This document shows, in pieces, positions 147 through 28,094 of a DNA stretch of 44,021 bases; the stretch's first letter is position 1; each line of letters begins with the position of its first letter. The position numbers and the translations under genes were made by a program. The DNA is taken from the sequence record MN158213.1; one strand, written 5' to 3'. A model generated the notes under the pieces. It did no database searches, was not told the DNA's origin, and saw nothing but the letters and a program-made list of their open reading frames with translations. This stretch comes from Escherichia phage BEK2-2.

Positions 147-330
147 CGGGACAGGCGGGACGTCCCGTTTTGTCCCGCCCCTCAAAAGTGAATGGCTATG
201 CGGTTTTTCTGCATAAAGTAAGCGGGACAAAAAGCGGGACAAACAGGAGGCGGGACAAAGCGGGACAGCACCCCTGTCCCAGTCAGTGCTGCCGCTGGTT
301 TTAGCCGATCGGGACAGGCGGGACAAAGCC
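147..330. repeat. GGGACA iteron-like array, copy A (direct and inverted GCGGGACA units, including palindromes GGGACGTCCC and GGGACAG-N5-CTGTCCC)
   Basis: Read directly: at least 8 direct and 3 inverted GGGAC(A/G) units within about 180 bp; homologous to 27722-27828. Confidence 0.7.
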
Positions 331-384
331 CAGTCTTTCAGACTAGACGGGGGTCAATGGCCCCCCTCGTCTGAGACTGAATAA
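331..384. promoter_or_regulatory. Conserved 54 bp imperfect hairpin element, copy A (cagtctttcagactagacgggggtcaatggcccccctcgtctgagactgaataa)
   Basis: Identical to 27829-27882; arms agacggggg / cccccctcgtct can pair, nested inside agtct/agact arms. Confidence 0.6.
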
Positions 385-447
385 GGTTTGTTTTAAATTC
401 GCTGATACAATGACCGACGGCAACTGCATAAAAAGGGGGACTGCATA

Positions 448-13646: not shown

Positions 13647-13700
13647 AGTATTACCCTTTTAGCGAGGGGGCTGTATTGCCCCCGACACGTTTACTATAGT

Positions 13701-13722
13701 GCAACCAACCTATTGGTTGCAA
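13701..13722. promoter_or_regulatory. Perfect palindrome TGCAACCAA-N4-TTGGTTGCA (operator-like)
   Basis: Read directly; member of the recurrent TGCAACCAAT motif family. Confidence 0.5.
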
Positions 13723-15226: not shown

Positions 15227-15307
15227 CGTGTTGTCTCCGGGTATTAAAAAGGGCGTCCAAACCGGACACCCTCAATATAATGCAACCAATCTAATTATGC
15301 AACCAAT

Positions 15308-21019: not shown

Positions 21020-21793
21020 TTAACGGCGGCGACGTTTGCGTGGTGCTTCGTCTTCGTCGTCGTCCTCATCATCTTCGTCATCGCGTGGCTTACGACGTTT
21101 ACGAGGTTTCTCATCTTCGTCGTCATCGTCATCGCGGCGCTTGGACTTTTTGGACTTGCGCGGCTTGTCGTCTTCGTCATCGCGGCGCTTGGACTTTTTG
21201 GACTTGCGCGGGCTTTCATCTTCGTCGTCGTTGTCCAGGTCTTCATCGGAGCACGAAGACCCGCCACCGAAGGCTTCACCGTCATCACGGAAGCGTAAAC
21301 CCAGCAGTCCAGCACCGAGTCCCTTGCCGTTGGTGTTGTTCCACGCCCAAATATCCAGTGACACATTGCAATAACAACCGGAGTAGATCTCCTTGCCTTC
21401 GATTTCGTCGCCTTCTACGGTCAGGCCCTGTTCGGTCTGCTTCTCGCCGAGTGACGTTTGGATGTTTGGCTGTTTGAACGATTTAGCGTTGATGTACAAC
21501 ATTCCTTCGAATTCTTCGGTTACTTCATCGCGCTCGTCGCCGTCGCGAACTGCACATTCCTTAGAATCCTGGGCGTAGTGGCGGTCCATCCACTTATCGG
21601 CATTCTTCTCGGATTTCAGCTTGTCGGTGAGCACTGCGCGCGCTGCCGCTTCCACTTTGTCCACCTGCGGATCTTCTTTATCAAGAAGAATCACGGCGCG
21701 GTATGCCGGTTTTTGTCCATCCTGTTTAGGGGTATCACGTTCCCAAATTTTCAGGAAACATACGCGCACATTTTTCAGGTTGACTTTAGCCAT
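21020..21793 (-). CDS. DUF2815-like single-stranded DNA-binding protein with highly charged repetitive C-terminal tail
   Basis: N-terminus MAKVNLKNVRVCFLKIWE typical of DUF2815; C-terminal DDEDDKPRKSKKSKRRDD repeats encoded by a tandem DNA repeat near 21100-21220. Confidence 0.6.
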   Translation of the reverse strand: MAKVNLKNVRVCFLKIWERDTPKQDGQKPAYRAVILLDKEDPQVDKVEAAARAVLTDKLKSEKNADKWMDRHYAQDSKECAVRDGDERDEVTEEFEGMLYINAKSFKQPNIQTSLGEKQTEQGLTVEGDEIEGKEIYSGCYCNVSLDIWAWNNTNGKGLGAGLLGLRFRDDGEAFGGGSSCSDEDLDNDDEDESPRKSKKSKRRDDEDDKPRKSKKSKRRDDDDDEDEKPRKRRKPRDDEDDEDDDEDEAPRKRRRR

Positions 21794-24553: not shown

Positions 24554-24895
24554 GGTATATCTCCGATTGGTTAAGTTTAGGTGTCGGCAGTTAACTTCGT
24601 CGGTGGCCTTAACATATTGCCAGGTTACGCGTTCTCCCGTTCGGGTAGTGGACCTGGTTATATAATCACGGTTGGGAATCCTGACACTTCGATCCGGCCC
24701 CTGCGTTGCCCCTCTCCAGTTTGCGTCCTGCATCCTGTCGACGGAGTGAATGATAGATTGGTTGCAGGATGGGTGTCAACAACTAATTTCAAAAAAAAAG
24801 CGCCGAGGCAAAATGCGACGGCGCTAACCAATAAGAGACAATGAGACGGGAATTATTATTACACGCGTGCGCGCCCGTTTCAATATCCAAAGGAT

Positions 24896-24955: not shown

Positions 24956-25285
24956 ATGAATATCAAAGAAGCAATTGAAGTGTTATCTAATGCAATCCGC
25001 GGCGAAGCGGGTAAATCCTGGTATTACACAAATGCGGTGGATACTCTGTTATTTGAAGTGTCCAGATTATCGCGTGCTGAGAAGGAGCTTACCGCGAAGC
25101 TGGAATTGCTCAACGGCACGGCAGCAAGCAAGCTGCAAAAACACAATGAAGAAATGGAAGAATACAAAAAGCAGGTTATCCGTTTACGCAATGAGGGAAA
25201 GTCATGGGCAATGATCGCCGAGTTGACCGGAATTAATCAGAGCACAGTGCGCTCCTGGGTACGCAATAATAAAACTTCAAAGTAA
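24956..25285 (+). CDS. Putative HTH transcriptional regulator
   Basis: C-terminal helix-turn-helix-like segment SWAMIAELTGINQSTVRSWVRNN; first gene of the rightward early operon. Confidence 0.55.
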   Translation: MNIKEAIEVLSNAIRGEAGKSWYYTNAVDTLLFEVSRLSRAEKELTAKLELLNGTAASKLQKHNEEMEEYKKQVIRLRNEGKSWAMIAELTGINQSTVRSWVRNNKTSK

Positions 25286-25295
25286 GGCAACGGCA

Positions 25296-27560
25296 ATGAG
25301 CTTGATTAAATTCGCTGTAACACGACCCGCTAAAAAAGGCGAAAAAGCCAGGGCGGAAAACTTCCAGATGAGTACCGAAGAGTTTTTCGAATTTATCAAT
25401 GATGCGAAAGAAATCTCCTCGGTGCATATCAACAAAACGGAAGATAAAGCGGAGTATGCGCGCCGCAAGCGTAAGGCTGATGGGATTGTGGCTTATACCA
25501 GTGACGGATTACGCCGCAAGACCAGTGCGGTGGACCGCTCGATCCTGTTCTTCGATATTGACCGTACCGACACCCGCACCCTACGCCGCTGCCGTAAGGC
25601 TTTCATCGACGCGGGGCTGGAGCACGTATTCCACACAACCACCGGCGACCGTCACCCGCTTAAGGGCGGAACGCGTTGCGCTCGCTTCCTGGTACTCACT
25701 GACAAGCCTGTACCGGCTGAAGACCTGGGCCGTGTCCAGTATGCGCTATTACACCAACTTGGCCTGTCAGATGTGGACTTCGACGATTGCACGAAAGACA
25801 CAAACCGCCTGATGTACCTGCCACACCAGCAGTCTGTTATTAAATGCCATTACGGAAAGCGCGCCCGTGTCCGTCGTCTGCTTCGCCTGGCCGATAAGCT
25901 GGGAATGGAAAAAGAGGAAGTACGACGAGAACTGACCCAGGGCGATAACGGCGTGGCGGACGGTATTCTGGATTGGTGCTTCCAGGCGGGATTCGAACCG
26001 CTGTCGTCCGGTCGTGGTTATGAAGTGCCATGCCCGAACGAACACCTGCACAGTGGTGAAGGGTCCACCGCTATCATGGTTAAGGATGGCGAGATCCGTT
26101 TCAAGTGTATGCACACCGGCAACGAGTGTTGCTCGGAGCTAAATAGACACCAGCACCTTGCGCTACGCCTCATCGGGATACCGGACCACCTGAACGTCGA
26201 ACCGCACAACATGTCACGTAAGCAAATCGCCGCCATCCTCCCAGGGCTGGACGACGAGGAAGTCGAATCCTTATATGAACATATTGTTGATGCGGTTGGC
26301 GACGGCGAAGAATACGGCGTGTGCACCGATGCGGATCTGGATAACGAGCCGGTTGCGCTGTTCAGTAAGCACGACCCGATTATCGAGGGGTTGGTTAACT
26401 TTAAATCAACCTGGTATATGGCGGGTGAGTCGAACATCGGTAAATCGTTCTACGTGCTGGGGCAAATGGGTGCGGTTGCCGCGGGGATTCCGTTCGGTGG
26501 CGCGAAGGTCGTCCAGTCTCATTGCTTCTATTTCGACGCGGAAGGTGGCGAAGCCTCCAACCAGCGTAAGGAAGCATTGCAGATTAAATATGAGCACGAC
26601 CTGGACAAGCTGCACATTATCGATCTGCAATCACGCGGCTGGGATATCACCAGCAAATCCGGCTTGCGTGAAGTTATCAGCTTCATCAACCGCACCGCTA
26701 ACGGCGAGCCGGTTGGCCTGGTGGCGTTCGACTCACTCAACCAGACTGTTGCGCTGCGGTCCGCCGATGCTAAACCGTTCGACGAGAACAACGCCAGCGA
26801 TATGGGTGAAGTGGTCAAGGCGCTGAAGGCCATTGCGGAAAATACAGGCGGCAGTGCGGGCGTCATCCACCACCCGGCGAAGGGTGCAAACGGCAGCAGA
26901 TCTCCCCGTGGGTCCGGCGCGCTGCATGGCGCTGTCGATTCTGCGTTCTTCCTGGAGCAACCGGACGACAATCAGCCGGGCCAATTGAACCTGTATCACG
27001 AAAAGGCACGTAACGGCATCAAGCAAGCGCCGCGCGGCTTCGTCCTGCTCAAGTGCAAGGTTAAGGTGGATCTCCGCAAGTCCGAAGCGTTCGAATCACA
27101 CCAGTCCACCAGCATCGGGCCTGACTTCGGCGACGTGGTTGCCGGTTGGGACGTCAAGCCAATTGCATCCACGCCACGCGACGAGACTCTTTATCTCGTA
27201 CCGGTCGCCCTGGCACCGTTCGCCATCGAACAGGCAAAGGCCGCGGGCAAGGCCGCAGTTAAGGATGAGAACGCCGCAGGACCGCGCAACGAAAAAGAGA
27301 AAGTTCTTTATGCGGCACTGGAAAAACTGATGGAAGATAACCCGGACCATACCGGATTCAGTAAATCGGCAATTGTCCGCCAGGCTGGACTTGCGAAAGG
27401 TGGCACATCGACGAAGGCAATAGACGATATGGTGGAGCGCGGCGTGCTCGGTTTTTATACAGATCCGCACACCGGGGCCATCTATGGGTCGTCGAATATC
27501 GTCATCAAAACGAATATACCCATCACGCTTTCTGCGACCGACGATGACCTGAAAGATTAA
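25296..27560 (+). CDS. DNA primase/helicase (prim-pol-like N-terminus plus RecA-fold helicase)
   Basis: N-terminal FFDIDR (DxD); C-terminal Walker A GESNIGKS and Walker B-like VGLVAFDSLNQ. Confidence 0.7.
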   Translation: MSLIKFAVTRPAKKGEKARAENFQMSTEEFFEFINDAKEISSVHINKTEDKAEYARRKRKADGIVAYTSDGLRRKTSAVDRSILFFDIDRTDTRTLRRCRKAFIDAGLEHVFHTTTGDRHPLKGGTRCARFLVLTDKPVPAEDLGRVQYALLHQLGLSDVDFDDCTKDTNRLMYLPHQQSVIKCHYGKRARVRRLLRLADKLGMEKEEVRRELTQGDNGVADGILDWCFQAGFEPLSSGRGYEVPCPNEHLHSGEGSTAIMVKDGEIRFKCMHTGNECCSELNRHQHLALRLIGIPDHLNVEPHNMSRKQIAAILPGLDDEEVESLYEHIVDAVGDGEEYGVCTDADLDNEPVALFSKHDPIIEGLVNFKSTWYMAGESNIGKSFYVLGQMGAVAAGIPFGGAKVVQSHCFYFDAEGGEASNQRKEALQIKYEHDLDKLHIIDLQSRGWDITSKSGLREVISFINRTANGEPVGLVAFDSLNQTVALRSADAKPFDENNASDMGEVVKALKAIAENTGGSAGVIHHPAKGANGSRSPRGSGALHGAVDSAFFLEQPDDNQPGQLNLYHEKARNGIKQAPRGFVLLKCKVKVDLRKSEAFESHQSTSIGPDFGDVVAGWDVKPIASTPRDETLYLVPVALAPFAIEQAKAAGKAAVKDENAAGPRNEKEKVLYAALEKLMEDNPDHTGFSKSAIVRQAGLAKGGTSTKAIDDMVERGVLGFYTDPHTGAIYGSSNIVIKTNIPITLSATDDDLKD

Positions 27561-27670
27561 ATCCAGCGCGCATTGGTTGCCGATATGGGGATTCCCATAT
27601 CGCTAAAAGGTTAAATCCTGCGCGCATTGGTTGCCATTTTTAGTGTTTTTATCCGGTCGTATTGGTTGCC
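27557..27670. repeat. Direct repeats ttaaatccWgcgcgcattggttgcc (two copies plus a third partial) flanking palindrome gatatggg-N-cccatatc
   Basis: Read directly, immediately after the primase/helicase stop codon. Confidence 0.6.
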
Positions 27671-27721
27671 GTGTAGTGTGAATACAGTGAATAGTTATGC
27701 AATAAAACTGCATAAACCAAA

Positions 27722-27828
27722 CGGGACAGAAAGCGGGACAAACATGGGGCGGGACAAAGCGGGACAGCACCCCCGTCCCGCCCCGGATGGCGCGGCCTGG
27801 CGGGGAGCGGGACAAGCGGGACAAACCC
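27722..27828. repeat. GGGACA iteron-like array, copy B
   Basis: Direct GGGACA units and palindrome GGGACAGCACCCCCGTCCC; homologous to copy A at 147-330. Confidence 0.7.
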
Positions 27829-27882
27829 CAGTCTTTCAGACTAGACGGGGGTCAATGGCCCCCCTCGTCTGAGACTGAATAA
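27829..27882. promoter_or_regulatory. Conserved 54 bp imperfect hairpin element, copy B
   Basis: Identical to 331-384. Confidence 0.6.
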
Positions 27883-28037
27883 AATCCGGAGATTGCAAAA
27901 CACACGGCAGCATGATACGAAGTGCGGTCGTCTACTAACTAGGCAACCAATGCGGGTTGTATTATGCTGAGTGAAAAATGCGGTTTGCAGCCACAGCAGA
28001 TAGCGATCAACTTTTTCATGCGCGTGATTAATATTGG

Positions 28038-28066
28038 TTGCGTCCACCCCGGCACCAGGCTATATT
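28038..28066 (+). promoter_or_regulatory. Putative promoter TTGCGT-N17-TATATT overlapping two ATTGGTTGC motifs
   Basis: Read directly; 28 bp upstream of the 28095 gene. Confidence 0.35.
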
Positions 28067-28094
28067 GGTTGCACACCAACATGAGGACTGAACA

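What the first reader, a model, noticed from the sequence alone, without database searches (positions are those of the whole stretch)
27557..28094. Repeat-dense 540 bp non-coding region directly after the primase/helicase gene: candidate replication origin
Immediately after the primase/helicase stop the sequence has two 25 bp direct repeats around a perfect palindrome (gatatggg/cccatatc), three ATTGGTTGCC motifs, an AT-rich stretch, about 9 GGGACA iterons including a 7 bp-arm palindrome, then a 54 bp GC-rich imperfect hairpin and further ATTGGTTGC motifs before the next gene. Iterons plus an AT-rich segment plus a hairpin beside the initiator helicase/primase gene is the classical origin layout. 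The ORF-track frame across the iterons (27627..27872) is probably not coding.
Basis: partly seen in the sequence, partly recalled or inferred. Interest (0 to 1): 0.7.

Follow-up and report, generated by a model that had tools for sequence, protein, structure and literature searches.

The report
Duplicated iteron–hairpin module beside phage terminus
The repeat-dense non-coding stretch after the helicase-primase gene of this HK578-like coliphage is real; its core is present twice per genome and kept in related phages with changed repeat sequences. It most likely holds a replication origin next to the DNA-packaging start point, but neither function has been tested.

Summary
The window is a nearly complete Dhillonvirus (HK578/SO-1-like) genome. 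All the described repeats exist, with small corrections. There are 7 CGGGAC(A) units rather than about 9, and the hairpin is 49 nt.

New facts:
1. The iteron-plus-hairpin core (27683-27882) is duplicated at 186-385, between a tail gene and the tape-measure gene. Both copies occur in all 158 complete Dhillonvirus records. The SO-1 GenBank record already labels them 'region A/B'.
2. Relatives whose helicase-primase is only 37-49% identical keep the same layout but use other iterons (TCCGACA, AGGGATA, GGGGAGA, GACTCGCAA, TTCCGCACA). Some also carry a second copy in the late region.
3. ATTGGTTGC is a genome-wide, promoter-associated motif (15 sites against 0.43 expected), not an origin-specific one.
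4. At least 8 independent records start at window 27994, and one carries a 2,026-bp terminal redundancy. The virion end, or pac cut, therefore lies inside the finding.
5. The gene product is an AEP primase, a RepA-like helicase and a winged helix.
6. ORF 27627-27872 is not coding.

Best reading: a composite cis-acting hub. It combines a two-copy iteron origin (SPP1 oriL/oriR-like), the packaging start and promoters. The origin role is plausible (about 0.45) but unproven. Terminase recognition and transcriptional control remain live rivals.

The parts
25296..27560 (+). Helicase-primase gene (754 aa): AEP primase, Zn ribbon, RepA-like AAA_25 helicase, C-terminal winged helix, acidic tail
24956..25285 (+). 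Small HTH protein (109 aa) co-transcribed with the helicase-primase; a candidate site-specific DNA binder
   Evidence: Pfam HTH_23 and Sigma70_r4_2, E about 2e-6. Replaced by an unrelated XRE/HTH_3 protein at the same position in distant relatives.
27549..27635 (+). Optional 54-bp tandem duplication: two 33-nt repeats, each ending in ATTGGTTGCC, around the palindrome 27581-27602
   Evidence: D2, I13. Present in 10 of the 20 Dhillonvirus sequences compared, counting this window, and absent from HK578, EP23 and others.
27572..27669 (+). Three upstream ATTGGTTGCC motifs (27572, 27626, 27661); only the last is universal
27681..27721 (.). AT-rich segment with the small palindrome TATGCA-N7-TGCATA (27696-27714) and the conserved box GAATAGTTATGCA
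   Evidence: 30% GC, 11th least stable 40-mer of the genome. The box is conserved in relatives with 37-45% identical helicase-primase. The palindrome loop occurs in both orientations among genomes. TTATGCA occurs 10 times in the window, 5 of them in the two modules.
27722..27823 (+). Iteron array B: six direct CGGGACA, one inverted copy at 27775-27780, and a GC-rich spacer at 27767-27807
   Evidence: 78% of iteron-core columns are invariant, against 22-41% for the spacers, across 24 copies.
27829..27877 (.). 49-nt imperfect palindrome / hairpin B, identical in sequence to hairpin A
   Evidence: z = -4.5 on the + strand, -3.7 on the - strand. 90% of stem columns are invariant and 0% of loop columns. 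A hairpin of different sequence occupies the same place in distant relatives.
27894..27989 (.). Second, nested imperfect palindrome (arms 27894-27904/27979-27989 and 27908-27918/27959-27969). It carries the ACGGCAGC box (27904-27911), with the inverted ATTGGTTGCC (27942-27951) near its apex.
   Evidence: I12, I20. 78.5% of cells are paired against 20-45% for slid controls, and 6 pairs change on both sides. Caveat: the structure was derived from the window sequence.
27993..27994 (+). Inferred physical left end of virion DNA (pac cut or terminal-redundancy boundary)
   Evidence: At least 8 independent GenBank records start at CAGCAGATAG, which is window 27994. The WF5505 record has an exact 2,026-bp redundancy beginning there. 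Korf 2019 linearised contigs at abrupt read ends (PMC6563267). PhageTerm predicted headful packaging for the genus (PMC9022532). The site lies within 2 nt of the centre of the inverted ATTGGTTGC pair 27943-27951 / 28033-28041. The 45 nt after it are almost invariant.
28033..28072 (+). Two ATTGGTTGC motifs with a promoter-like TTGCGT (28038-28043), 17-nt spacer, TATATT (28061-28066), before gene 28095
   Evidence: Read from the sequence. It fails the strict consensus scan. The motifs are invariant in 18 Dhillonviruses.
147..325 (+). Iteron array A. Extra palindromic iterons at 147-177; TATGCG/TGCATA box at 197-215; six direct CGGGACA at 223, 235, 251, 261, 310 and 319; one inverted copy (TGTCCC) at 275-280.
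331..379 (.). Hairpin A. The last 60 bp of module A are 100% identical to module B.
403..424 (+). Extended -10-like promoter TGaTACAAT (403-411) and ACGGCAAC box (417-424), between module A and the tape-measure start at 448
   Evidence: Read from the sequence. TGATACAAT is invariant in 15 A copies.

Best explanation
The 540-bp gap is a composite cis-acting control region of a Dhillonvirus genome, with three layers.

1. Its core (27683-27882) is a module made of an AT-rich box, seven short iterons (CGGGACA) and a 49-nt hairpin. A sequence-specific phage protein probably binds the iterons. The module most likely serves as the replication origin used by the adjacent AEP-primase / RepA-type-helicase / winged-helix protein. 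In this model, iteron binding opens the AT-rich box, the helicase loads, and the extruded hairpin offers a single-strand start site for the primase, as ssiA/ssiB do for RepB' in RSF1010.

A second copy of the module lies 16.3 kb downstream in the late operon (window 186-385). It would then be a second origin, or a bound-initiator barrier that stalls the fork and triggers the switch to concatemer synthesis, as proposed for SPP1 oriR.

2. About 116 nt to the right of the hairpin, at 27993/27994, lies the left end of packaged DNA (the first pac cut of headful packaging). A second palindrome and an inverted pair of ATTGGTTGC motifs flank it.

3. ATTGGTTGC is a genome-wide motif that overlaps the -35 position of several phage promoters. 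It is probably the site of a phage regulator, not an origin iteron.

What is shown: the anatomy, the duplication, the conservation pattern, the protein folds, and the shared start nucleotide of database records. What is inferred: every binding event, origin firing, the role of the hairpin, the role of the second copy, and the identity of the iteron binder.
For: Identity and duplication:
- The window matches 157 Dhillonvirus phage records.
- The module occurs twice in the window at 85% identity, with the last 60 bp identical. It occurs twice in every complete record: 158 records, 334 places.
- SO-1 annotators marked both copies as related repeat regions A and B.

Selection acts on the motifs, not on a reading frame:
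- 78% of iteron-core columns and 90% of hairpin-stem columns are invariant. Spacers are 22-41% invariant and loops 0%.
- One-base indels occur between iterons.

Same architecture, different iterons, in relatives with 37-49% identical helicase-primase:
- TCCGACA, AGGGATA and GGGGAT.
- GGGGAGA in Salmonella phage FSL SP-031 and TTCCGCACA in Serratia phage Tsm2.
- GACTCGCAA.
- A 68%-identical relative keeps CGGGACA and the same hairpin.
- A coordinated change of all copies within each lineage is the signature of protein-bound iterons.

Second copies arose at other late-region positions, 9.8-10.8 kb from the first copy, in Tsm2 and L272.
- They lie after the Mu F-like head gene. SPP1 oriR likewise interrupts the virion-assembly gene block of the late region (PMC6316719).
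- SPP1 has two origins of like organisation about 13 kb apart. Fork stalling at gp38-bound oriR is proposed to drive the theta-to-sigma switch.

Protein evidence:
- AAA_25 RepA-type helicase.
- C-terminal winged helix.
- RepB' starts on 40-nt hairpins in oriV (PMC8567376).
- pRN1 and the BIP-1 phages place an origin stem-loop just 3' of a primase-helicase-wH gene that follows a small repressor gene (PMC4234260).

Other points:
- HK578 mutants that escape OLD defence map to the helicase-primase gene and to its operon promoter (bioRxiv 10.64898/2026.07.10.737580).
- Terminus evidence.
- ATTGGTTGC.
Against: - No result shows replication initiating here. GC skew turns at about 24.8 kb together with gene orientation.
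- The AT-rich element is only the 11th least stable 40-mer of the genome.
- The iterons are short 7-bp cores with irregular 9-16-bp spacing, unlike classical 17-22-bp plasmid iterons. There is no good DnaA box: TTATGCA matches at most 7-8 of 9 positions.
- All phages that carry the module share the same gene order. 'Next to the helicase-primase gene' is therefore not independent of 'at the head of the block that leads to the terminase genes'.
- The virion end lies only 116 nt from the hairpin, so the module could instead belong to the packaging signal.
- Co-variation does not single out a binder. The small HTH, the TerS helix-turn-helix region and the winged helix all differ where iterons differ. 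The HTH and TerS helices are nearly unchanged where iterons are the same, and the winged helix is less so.
- Jerseyvirus and Kagunavirus genomes with related helicase-primases show no such array near the gene.
- FSL SP-031, over its whole genome, and L026, over the 22 kb examined, show only one copy.
Confidence: 0.45

Rival explanations
1. The iteron/hairpin module is part of the packaging signal. The small terminase subunit binds the CGGGACA array (as gpNu1 binds cosB, or SPP1 G1P binds pacL/pacR), bends the DNA, and directs the first cut at 27993/27994. The module is then not an origin.
For: The virion end maps 116 nt from the hairpin. The genus packages by headful (PMC9022532). The TerS helix-turn-helix region is nearly unchanged between the window and L271, which share CGGGACA. 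It differs between L026 and FSL SP-031, whose iterons differ. The module always sits at the head of the block that runs small genes, lysis genes, terminase.
Against: Module A lacks the whole cut-site part (27883-28094), yet it is conserved as strictly as B. A second terminase-loading site 16 kb away has no known precedent, and no record starts near it. Tsm2 and L272 put their second copies at different late positions. Other conserved elements flank the cut more closely: the inverted ATTGGTTGC pair, the second palindrome and the invariant 45 nt. These could be the real pac determinants.
Confidence: 0.2
2. The module is a transcriptional control cassette at the early/late boundary. The array binds the small HTH regulator (as a roadblock, repressor or activator), the hairpin attenuates read-through from the early operon, and promoters directly downstream restart transcription. 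The second copy does the same inside the long late operon.
For: Module B ends the early HTH/helicase-primase operon and precedes the small-gene, lysis and structural block, all on the + strand. Both copies have the same orientation as transcription. Promoter-like elements follow each copy: the TGaTACAAT extended -10 after A, invariant in 15 genomes, and TTGCGT-17-TATATT after B. Distant relatives have strong TTGACA-17-TATTGT promoters after the module. The XRE-type HTH recognition helix tracks iteron similarity better than the winged helix does. SPP1 oriR is likewise bracketed by transcription signals.
Against: The hairpin has no U-tract and fails the terminator scan. There is no iteron copy at the HTH gene's own promoter. 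Seven to eleven irregularly spaced sites plus a strictly invariant 49-nt palindrome is far more than known phage operators or activator sites need. Second copies sit before unrelated genes in different lineages.
Confidence: 0.2
3. The two copies encode a structured non-coding RNA or an RNA-level element, such as a put-like antiterminator or a processing site.
For: Both copies are transcribed-strand co-oriented and end in a stable hairpin. Two copies in two transcription units recall HK022 putL/putR (from memory, not tested).
Against: There is no Rfam match at gathering or at E<=1. The RNAalifold covariation term is 0.11, and no pair outside the invariant hairpin is supported. Lineages replace the repeated heptamer wholesale instead of making compensatory pair changes. 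The hairpin is a near-perfect palindrome that folds equally on both strands.
Confidence: 0.05

Closest known systems
Bacillus phage SPP1 oriL / oriR
   Same: A 44-kb lytic, headful-packaging siphovirus with two origin regions of like organisation (direct repeats plus an AT-rich DUE). One lies at a replication gene. The other interrupts the late structural operon about 13 kb away on the circle and is bracketed by transcription signals. The distal copy is proposed to stall the fork and trigger the theta-to-sigma switch (PMC6316719, PMC3485210). Here the two copies are 16.3 kb apart; in Tsm2 and L272 they are 10-11 kb apart.
   Different: The proteins are unrelated: SPP1 uses gp38 origin binder, gp39 loader and gp40 DnaB-type helicase with the host primase. 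SPP1 oriL lies inside gene 38. The repeats differ in sequence and length. SPP1 has no long hairpin. Nothing here has been tested experimentally.
RSF1010 (IncQ) oriV with RepA / RepB' / RepC
   Different: Primase and helicase are fused here and carry a winged helix. No RepC homologue was found. The iterons are 7-bp cores rather than 20-mers. There is one palindromic 49-nt hairpin instead of ssiA/ssiB on opposite strands. There is no sequence similarity to ssi sites.
Phage P4 ori / crr with the alpha protein
   Same: A multifunctional primase-helicase with a C-terminal winged helix. According to PMC4234260, the winged helix binds the repeats at the P4 origin. From my own knowledge, not checked here: the repeats are short octamers in direct and inverted orientation, at two separate loci both needed in cis.
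   Different: P4 alpha has a Toprim primase and, from memory, an SF3 helicase. Here the primase is an AEP and the helicase is a RecA-fold RepA type. It is not shown that the winged helix binds the iterons; co-variation does not favour it.
pRN1 ORF56/ORF904 replicon and Bordetella phages BIP-1/BPP-1
   Same: A small DNA-binding repressor gene, then an AEP-primase / helicase / winged-helix gene, then an essential stem-loop origin directly 3' of that gene (PMC4234260).
   Different: Those systems use an SF3 helicase and have no functional iterons. Here the helicase is AAA_25 and there are iterons and a second copy.
pac sites of headful phages (SPP1 pacL/pacC/pacR, P1 pac)
   Same: A defined first cut flanked on both sides by short repeated boxes in a non-coding region of about 250 bp, with terminal redundancy (2,026 bp, about 4.5%, in WF5505). 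The box layouts of SPP1 and P1 pac are recalled from memory, not checked here.
   Different: The cut here lies about 4.8 kb upstream of the terS gene rather than in or next to it. The flanking motif (ATTGGTTGC) also occurs at promoters elsewhere in the genome. Terminase binding is untested.

Membership tests
Iteron-type (theta) replication origin | Cluster of repeated initiator-binding sites, statistically non-random | tested here: met
   Six direct and one inverted CGGGAC(A) in 102 bp. 14 of the 19 genome copies lie in two modules, against 6.35 expected genome-wide. The cores are conserved and the spacers are free to vary.
Iteron-type (theta) replication origin | Adjacent AT-rich DNA-unwinding element | tested here: inconclusive
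   27681-27720 is 30% GC with z about 3, but it ranks only 11th among 40-mers in the genome.
Iteron-type (theta) replication origin | Iterons co-vary with a phage-encoded binding protein across lineages | tested here: inconclusive
   Iterons change lineage by lineage. The small HTH, TerS and the winged helix all change with them, so the binder is not identified.
Iteron-type (theta) replication origin | Supports initiation of replication, or binds the initiator | not testable with these tools
   Needs marker-frequency analysis, a plasmid replication assay, or EMSA/ChIP.
Iteron-type (theta) replication origin | Host DnaA boxes (TTATNCACA), an optional feature | tested here: not met
   Only TTATGCA(A/G)(T) occurs, matching 7-8 of 9 positions.
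SPP1-type dual origin (oriL/oriR) | Two regions of the same organisation, one at the replication genes and one in the late region | tested here: met
   also Tsm2 and L272.
SPP1-type dual origin (oriL/oriR) | Homologous replication proteins (gp38/gp39/gp40) | tested here: not met
   The protein here is AEP + AAA_25 + wH. This is analogy only.
RSF1010-type oriV | RepA-type helicase and RepB'-type AEP primase | tested here: met
RSF1010-type oriV | Two ssi hairpins on opposite strands and 20-bp iterons bound by RepC | tested here: not met
   There is one palindromic hairpin and 7-bp iteron cores. No RepC-like protein was seen among the flanking genes.
pac site / virion DNA terminus | Ends of packaged DNA map to the site | tested here: met
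   The evidence is indirect. At least 8 independent records start at window 27994. WF5505 carries a 2,026-bp redundancy from that site. The method statement is in PMC6563267. Raw reads were not analysed.
pac site / virion DNA terminus | Terminase small subunit binds flanking repeats | not testable with these tools
   Needs footprinting or EMSA.
Intrinsic transcription terminator | GC-rich hairpin followed by a U-tract | tested here: not met
   Neither hairpin is reported by the scan. The sequence after the stem is GAATAAAATCC.
Known RNA family (Rfam 15) | Covariance-model match | tested here: not met
   No match at gathering or at E<=1. No covariation support.
Protein-coding gene (ORF 27627-27872) | Reading frame and peptide conserved among relatives | tested here: not met
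   The frame is broken or shifted in 5 of 20 B copies and 6 of 15 A copies. Local frameshifts alter the peptide while the DNA motif stays.

The most novel reading that the evidence does not exclude
This phage group uses a portable 'origin cassette' made of lineage-specific iterons and a hairpin start site for a fused AEP-primase/RepA-helicase. The cassette has been copied independently into different places of the late operon. The proximal copy fires right beside the pac site. The distal copy acts as a programmed fork barrier or second origin that converts theta replication into concatemer synthesis. This would be a convergent re-invention of the SPP1 oriL/oriR logic in Gram-negative siphoviruses. 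It would also be the likely source of the ssDNA hairpins sensed by OLD- or Lamassu-type defences.
Probability: 0.2. Interest if true: 0.65.

Novelty: new member of a known kind. Interest (0 to 1): 0.45.

Why it matters
Dhillonviruses are among the most frequently isolated coliphages. They are in the BASEL collection and in therapeutic candidate sets, yet neither their origin nor their packaging site has been defined.

Locating both in one 540-bp gap, and showing that the iteron/hairpin core is a conserved two-copy module, gives concrete and testable targets. These matter for engineering: what must be kept, and what can be cloned to make phagemids or transducing vectors. They also matter for understanding the switch from theta to concatemeric replication.

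The result may also explain why HK578 escapes the P2 OLD defence through mutations in its replication-initiation operon. The lineage-specific iterons offer a natural specificity series for studying how an AEP-primase/RepA-helicase is recruited to DNA.

Tried and rejected
- GC skew and cumulative skew: the minimum is at about 24.8 kb and coincides with the switch of gene orientation, so it says nothing about an origin.
- Consensus promoter/terminator scans: nothing significant in either module.
- Rfam at gathering and at E<=1, and RNAalifold on 24 copies: no RNA family and no covariation.
- PDB sequence search with the helicase-primase: only a marginal RepA hit (E 0.45). Fold search was needed.
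- Plasmid collection search with the protein: no plasmid replicon uses this protein.
- IMG/VR scan with the 14-mer GGGATAAAGGGATA: it was swamped by chance hits and wasted.
- Assigning the iteron binder by co-variation:
  - The XRE recognition helix tracks iteron similarity slightly better than the winged helix. L026 and L028 have similar helices and similar iterons. L023 and L026 have similar winged helices and unrelated iterons.
  - The TerS HTH co-varies as well, so the binder is unresolved.
- Linking variants of the RTTGGNNGC motif to the winged-helix sequence: no consistent pattern.
- Jerseyvirus SETP7 and Kagunavirus Bas71: no iteron cluster near the helicase-primase, so the module is not universal in the wider family.
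- Literature searches for a described Dhillonvirus or Guernseyvirinae origin: none found. The SO-1 GenBank note ('possible ...') is cut off in the tool output, so the original annotators' guess could not be read.


Full report
**What the window is.** The 801 bases around the finding match 157 phage records at 80-95% identity, almost all Escherichia or Shigella Dhillonvirus (HK578/SO-1-like siphoviruses of about 44.5 kb). Compared with phage BMA1, the window lacks only about 515 bp between its end and its start, so it is a nearly complete, permuted genome. In the annotated relative PaulFeyerabend the gene order on the + strand is: small HTH gene, helicase-primase, this gap, small genes, lysis, terminase, head, tail. 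The other replication genes lie on the - strand.

**Check of the observation.**
- The 33-nt direct repeat (27549-27581 and 27603-27635, 91% identical) flanks the palindrome 27581-27602.
- ATTGGTTGC(C) occurs at 27572, 27626 and 27661 (+), 27943 (-), and 28033 and 28064 (+).
- CGGGACA occurs six times in direct orientation, with one inverted copy. The total is 7, not about 9. The internal palindrome has 10-bp arms.
- The hairpin spans 27829-27877 and is far more stable than shuffled sequence (z = -4.5, 0 of 200).
- The AT-rich 40-mer at 27681-27720 is real, but it ranks only 11th among the least stable segments of the genome.

Both motifs are far from chance. ATTGGTTGC has 15 sites against 0.43 expected. 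CGGGACA has 19 against 6.35, with 14 in two clusters.

**The core is duplicated.** The second CGGGACA cluster lies at window 147-325. Aligning 100-460 with 27640-27920 shows a module of about 200 bp present twice: copy A at 186-385 and copy B at 27683-27882. The two are 85% identical overall, and the last 60 bp, including the whole hairpin, are 100% identical.

Copy A sits between the tail gene in the chaperone position and the tape-measure gene. Every complete Dhillonvirus record has both copies: 158 records, 334 places. The Sodalis phage SO-1 GenBank entry already annotates them as 'region A' and 'region B', described as 'direct, inverted and palindromic repeat sequences' with mutual similarity. 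The duplication is therefore not a new observation, although I found no publication that analyses it.

**Conservation pattern.** I compared 20 B and 15 A copies and then a 24-sequence alignment.

| Element | Invariant columns |
|---|---|
| Iteron cores | 78% |
| Spacers | 22-41% |
| Hairpin stems | 90% |
| Hairpin loop | 0% |
| TATGCA/TGCATA arms | 75% |
| Loop between those arms | 0% |

- The 7-nt loop between the TATGCA and TGCATA arms occurs in both orientations among genomes.
- Variants of the last iteron pair (8- versus 9-bp spacing) are shared between A and B copies of different genomes. This indicates exchange between the two copies.
- One-base indels between iterons shift the reading frame.
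- The frame 27627-27872 is open in most copies simply because the sequence is poor in stop codons. It is broken or shifted in 11 of 35 copies, and the peptide changes where the DNA motif does not. It is not a gene.
- The 54-bp duplication with the palindrome is present in 10 of the 20 Dhillonvirus sequences compared, counting this window, and so is dispensable.

**Distant relatives.** Loci that encode helicase-primases only 37-49% identical keep the same order after the gene. The order is: a conserved GAATAGTTATGCA box, an iteron array with a few inverted copies, a hairpin, an ACGGCA(G/A)C box, and then a promoter. The heptamer differs in each lineage:
- TCCGACA, AGGGATA and GGGGAT.
- GGGGAGA in Salmonella phage FSL SP-031 and TTCCGCACA in Serratia phage Tsm2.
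- GACTCGCAA in L272.

A 68%-identical relative keeps CGGGACA and the same hairpin. The hairpins differ in sequence but occupy the same place, and each folds better than shuffled sequence (z -1.9 to -4.6).

Replacing all copies of a repeat within a lineage, with no compensatory pair changes, argues for protein-bound DNA sites and against an RNA structure. Rfam and RNAalifold also give nothing.

Tsm2 and L272 also carry a second copy, 10.8 and 9.8 kb downstream, after the Mu F-like head gene. FSL SP-031, over its whole genome, and L026, over the 22 kb examined, show only one copy. Jerseyvirus and Kagunavirus genomes show none near the gene.

The upstream 109-aa protein has a sigma-70-region-4/HTH_23-type helix-turn-helix. 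In distant relatives an unrelated XRE protein takes its place.

I tried to identify the iteron binder by co-variation.
- The XRE recognition helix follows iteron similarity somewhat better than the winged helix does.
- The TerS helix-turn-helix also co-varies.
- The binder therefore remains open.

**ATTGGTTGC is a separate system.** Eight of its 15 sites lie outside the finding, in intergenic regions. At 5-6 sites its TTGC(A) forms a -35-like hexamer, 16-17 bp upstream of a TATATT-like -10. One of these is the promoter of the HTH/helicase-primase operon at 24757. The same positions carry the motif in PaulFeyerabend.

Related forms (RTTGGNNGC) flank the iteron/hairpin core in opposite orientations in most distant lineages. 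The motif is best read as the site of a regulator that overlaps promoters, and it clusters here. It is not evidence for an origin.

**The virion end lies inside the finding.** At least eight records from unrelated laboratories begin at exactly the same nucleotide, CAGCAGATAG, which is window 27994. The records are BMA1, PTXU06, WF5505, SP1, UDS3lw, Zar3M, 101114B2 and Pandora71. The position is 104 nt before the first gene, so the shared start is not a gene-based convention.
- The WF5505 record carries an exact 2,026-bp terminal redundancy that begins at this site.
- Dhillonvirus assemblies circularise, and PhageTerm predicted headful packaging (PMC9022532).

I therefore infer that the first pac cut is at 27993/27994, 116 nt after the hairpin.
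- The cut lies within 2 nt of the centre of the inverted ATTGGTTGC pair (27943-27951 and 28033-28041).
- It lies 4 nt after a second, nested palindrome (27894-27989). That palindrome keeps 78.5% pairing across 19 genomes, against 20-45% for slid controls.
- The 45 nt after the cut are almost invariant.

**Interpretation.** The gap is a composite hub. For the duplicated iteron/hairpin module I favour a replication role at about 0.45. The reasons are:
- iterons with lineage-specific sequence;
- an AT-rich box;
- a hairpin suited to an AEP primase that resembles RepB', which starts on hairpins in RSF1010 oriV (PMC8567376);
- the arrangement 'small repressor, then primase-helicase-wH, then stem-loop origin' known from pRN1 and the BIP-1 phages (PMC4234260);
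- above all, the recurrent second copy in the late region. This mirrors SPP1 oriL/oriR, where the distal copy is thought to stall the fork and start concatemer synthesis (PMC6316719, PMC3485210).

Weaknesses of the origin reading:
- The shared synteny of all module-bearing phages makes 'beside the helicase-primase' non-independent evidence.
- The AT-rich element is modest.
- There is no DnaA box.
- The pac cut is very close.

Rivals are terminase recognition (0.2), a transcriptional boundary cassette (0.2) and an RNA element (0.05). It is plausible for the core, wrong for ATTGGTTGC, and it missed the packaging function of the right-hand third.

**Novelty.** This is an uncharacterised member of a known kind, an iteron-type phage origin or cis-acting hub. 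It has a notable two-copy layout and an unusual fused AEP-primase/RepA-helicase. Database annotators have partly noticed it already, and it is experimentally untouched.

Noticed in passing
window 10518, 13712, 15282, 15299, 18241, 24757, 28598, 39086, 39100: ATTGGTTGC sites outside the finding lie mostly in intergenic regions, and several supply a -35-like TTGCA(N16-17)TATATT promoter. At 13700-13720 two copies form a palindrome (GCAACCAAcctATTGGTTGC). At 15282/15299 they are in tandem, and there are three copies in PaulFeyerabend. The binder is unknown.
   Followed up: partly
window 403-411: An extended -10-like element cgcTGaTACAAT lies directly after module A and 37 nt before the tape-measure start codon. 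It is invariant in 15 genomes. This suggests that the tail genes downstream of the inserted module have their own promoter.
   Followed up: partly
window 27696-27714 and the homologous sites in relatives: The 7-nt loop of the small palindrome TATGCA-N7-TGCATA occurs as ATAAAAC in some genomes and as its reverse complement GTTTTAT in others. This flip of the loop suggests hairpin or cruciform-mediated inversion.
   Followed up: no
window 24956-25285 versus L026:2635-2865, L272:9699-9935, L273:5005-5244: The small DNA-binding gene in front of the helicase-primase has been replaced non-homologously. It is a sigma-70-r4/HTH_23-type 109-aa protein in Dhillonvirus-like phages (PHROG label 'transposase') and an XRE/HTH_3 protein of about 75 aa in Cornellvirus- and Tsm2-like phages.
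   Followed up: partly
L285 (WF5505, NC_073060.1) 1-2026 and 45057-47082: The RefSeq record contains an exact 2,026-bp terminal redundancy, so five genes are annotated twice. This is useful as a record of the headful size (about 104.5% of the genome).
   Followed up: yes
plasmid record CP088689.1 (hit H131): A 44,086-bp 'plasmid' from an E. coli blood isolate encodes a full-length homologue (34.5% identity) of the helicase-primase. It is probably a siphovirus genome carried or co-assembled with the host, not a plasmid.
   Followed up: no
window 21142-21199: Four copies of AAGTCCA (or its complement) occur within 60 bp on the - strand gene block. This was the only other short-repeat cluster found by the k-mer scan. 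It is probably a coding repeat.
   Followed up: no
L270 (Serratia phage Tsm2) 1-58 and 39742-39799: The record ends repeat its first 50-60 nt. This is most likely an untrimmed circular-assembly overlap rather than a real terminal repeat.
   Followed up: no
L019-L025 (IMG/VR relatives, 43-44% identical helicase-primase): These GC-rich relatives have canonical terminators and convergent genes directly after the helicase-primase, with no iteron module there. Their equivalent cis elements, if any, must lie elsewhere.
   Followed up: no
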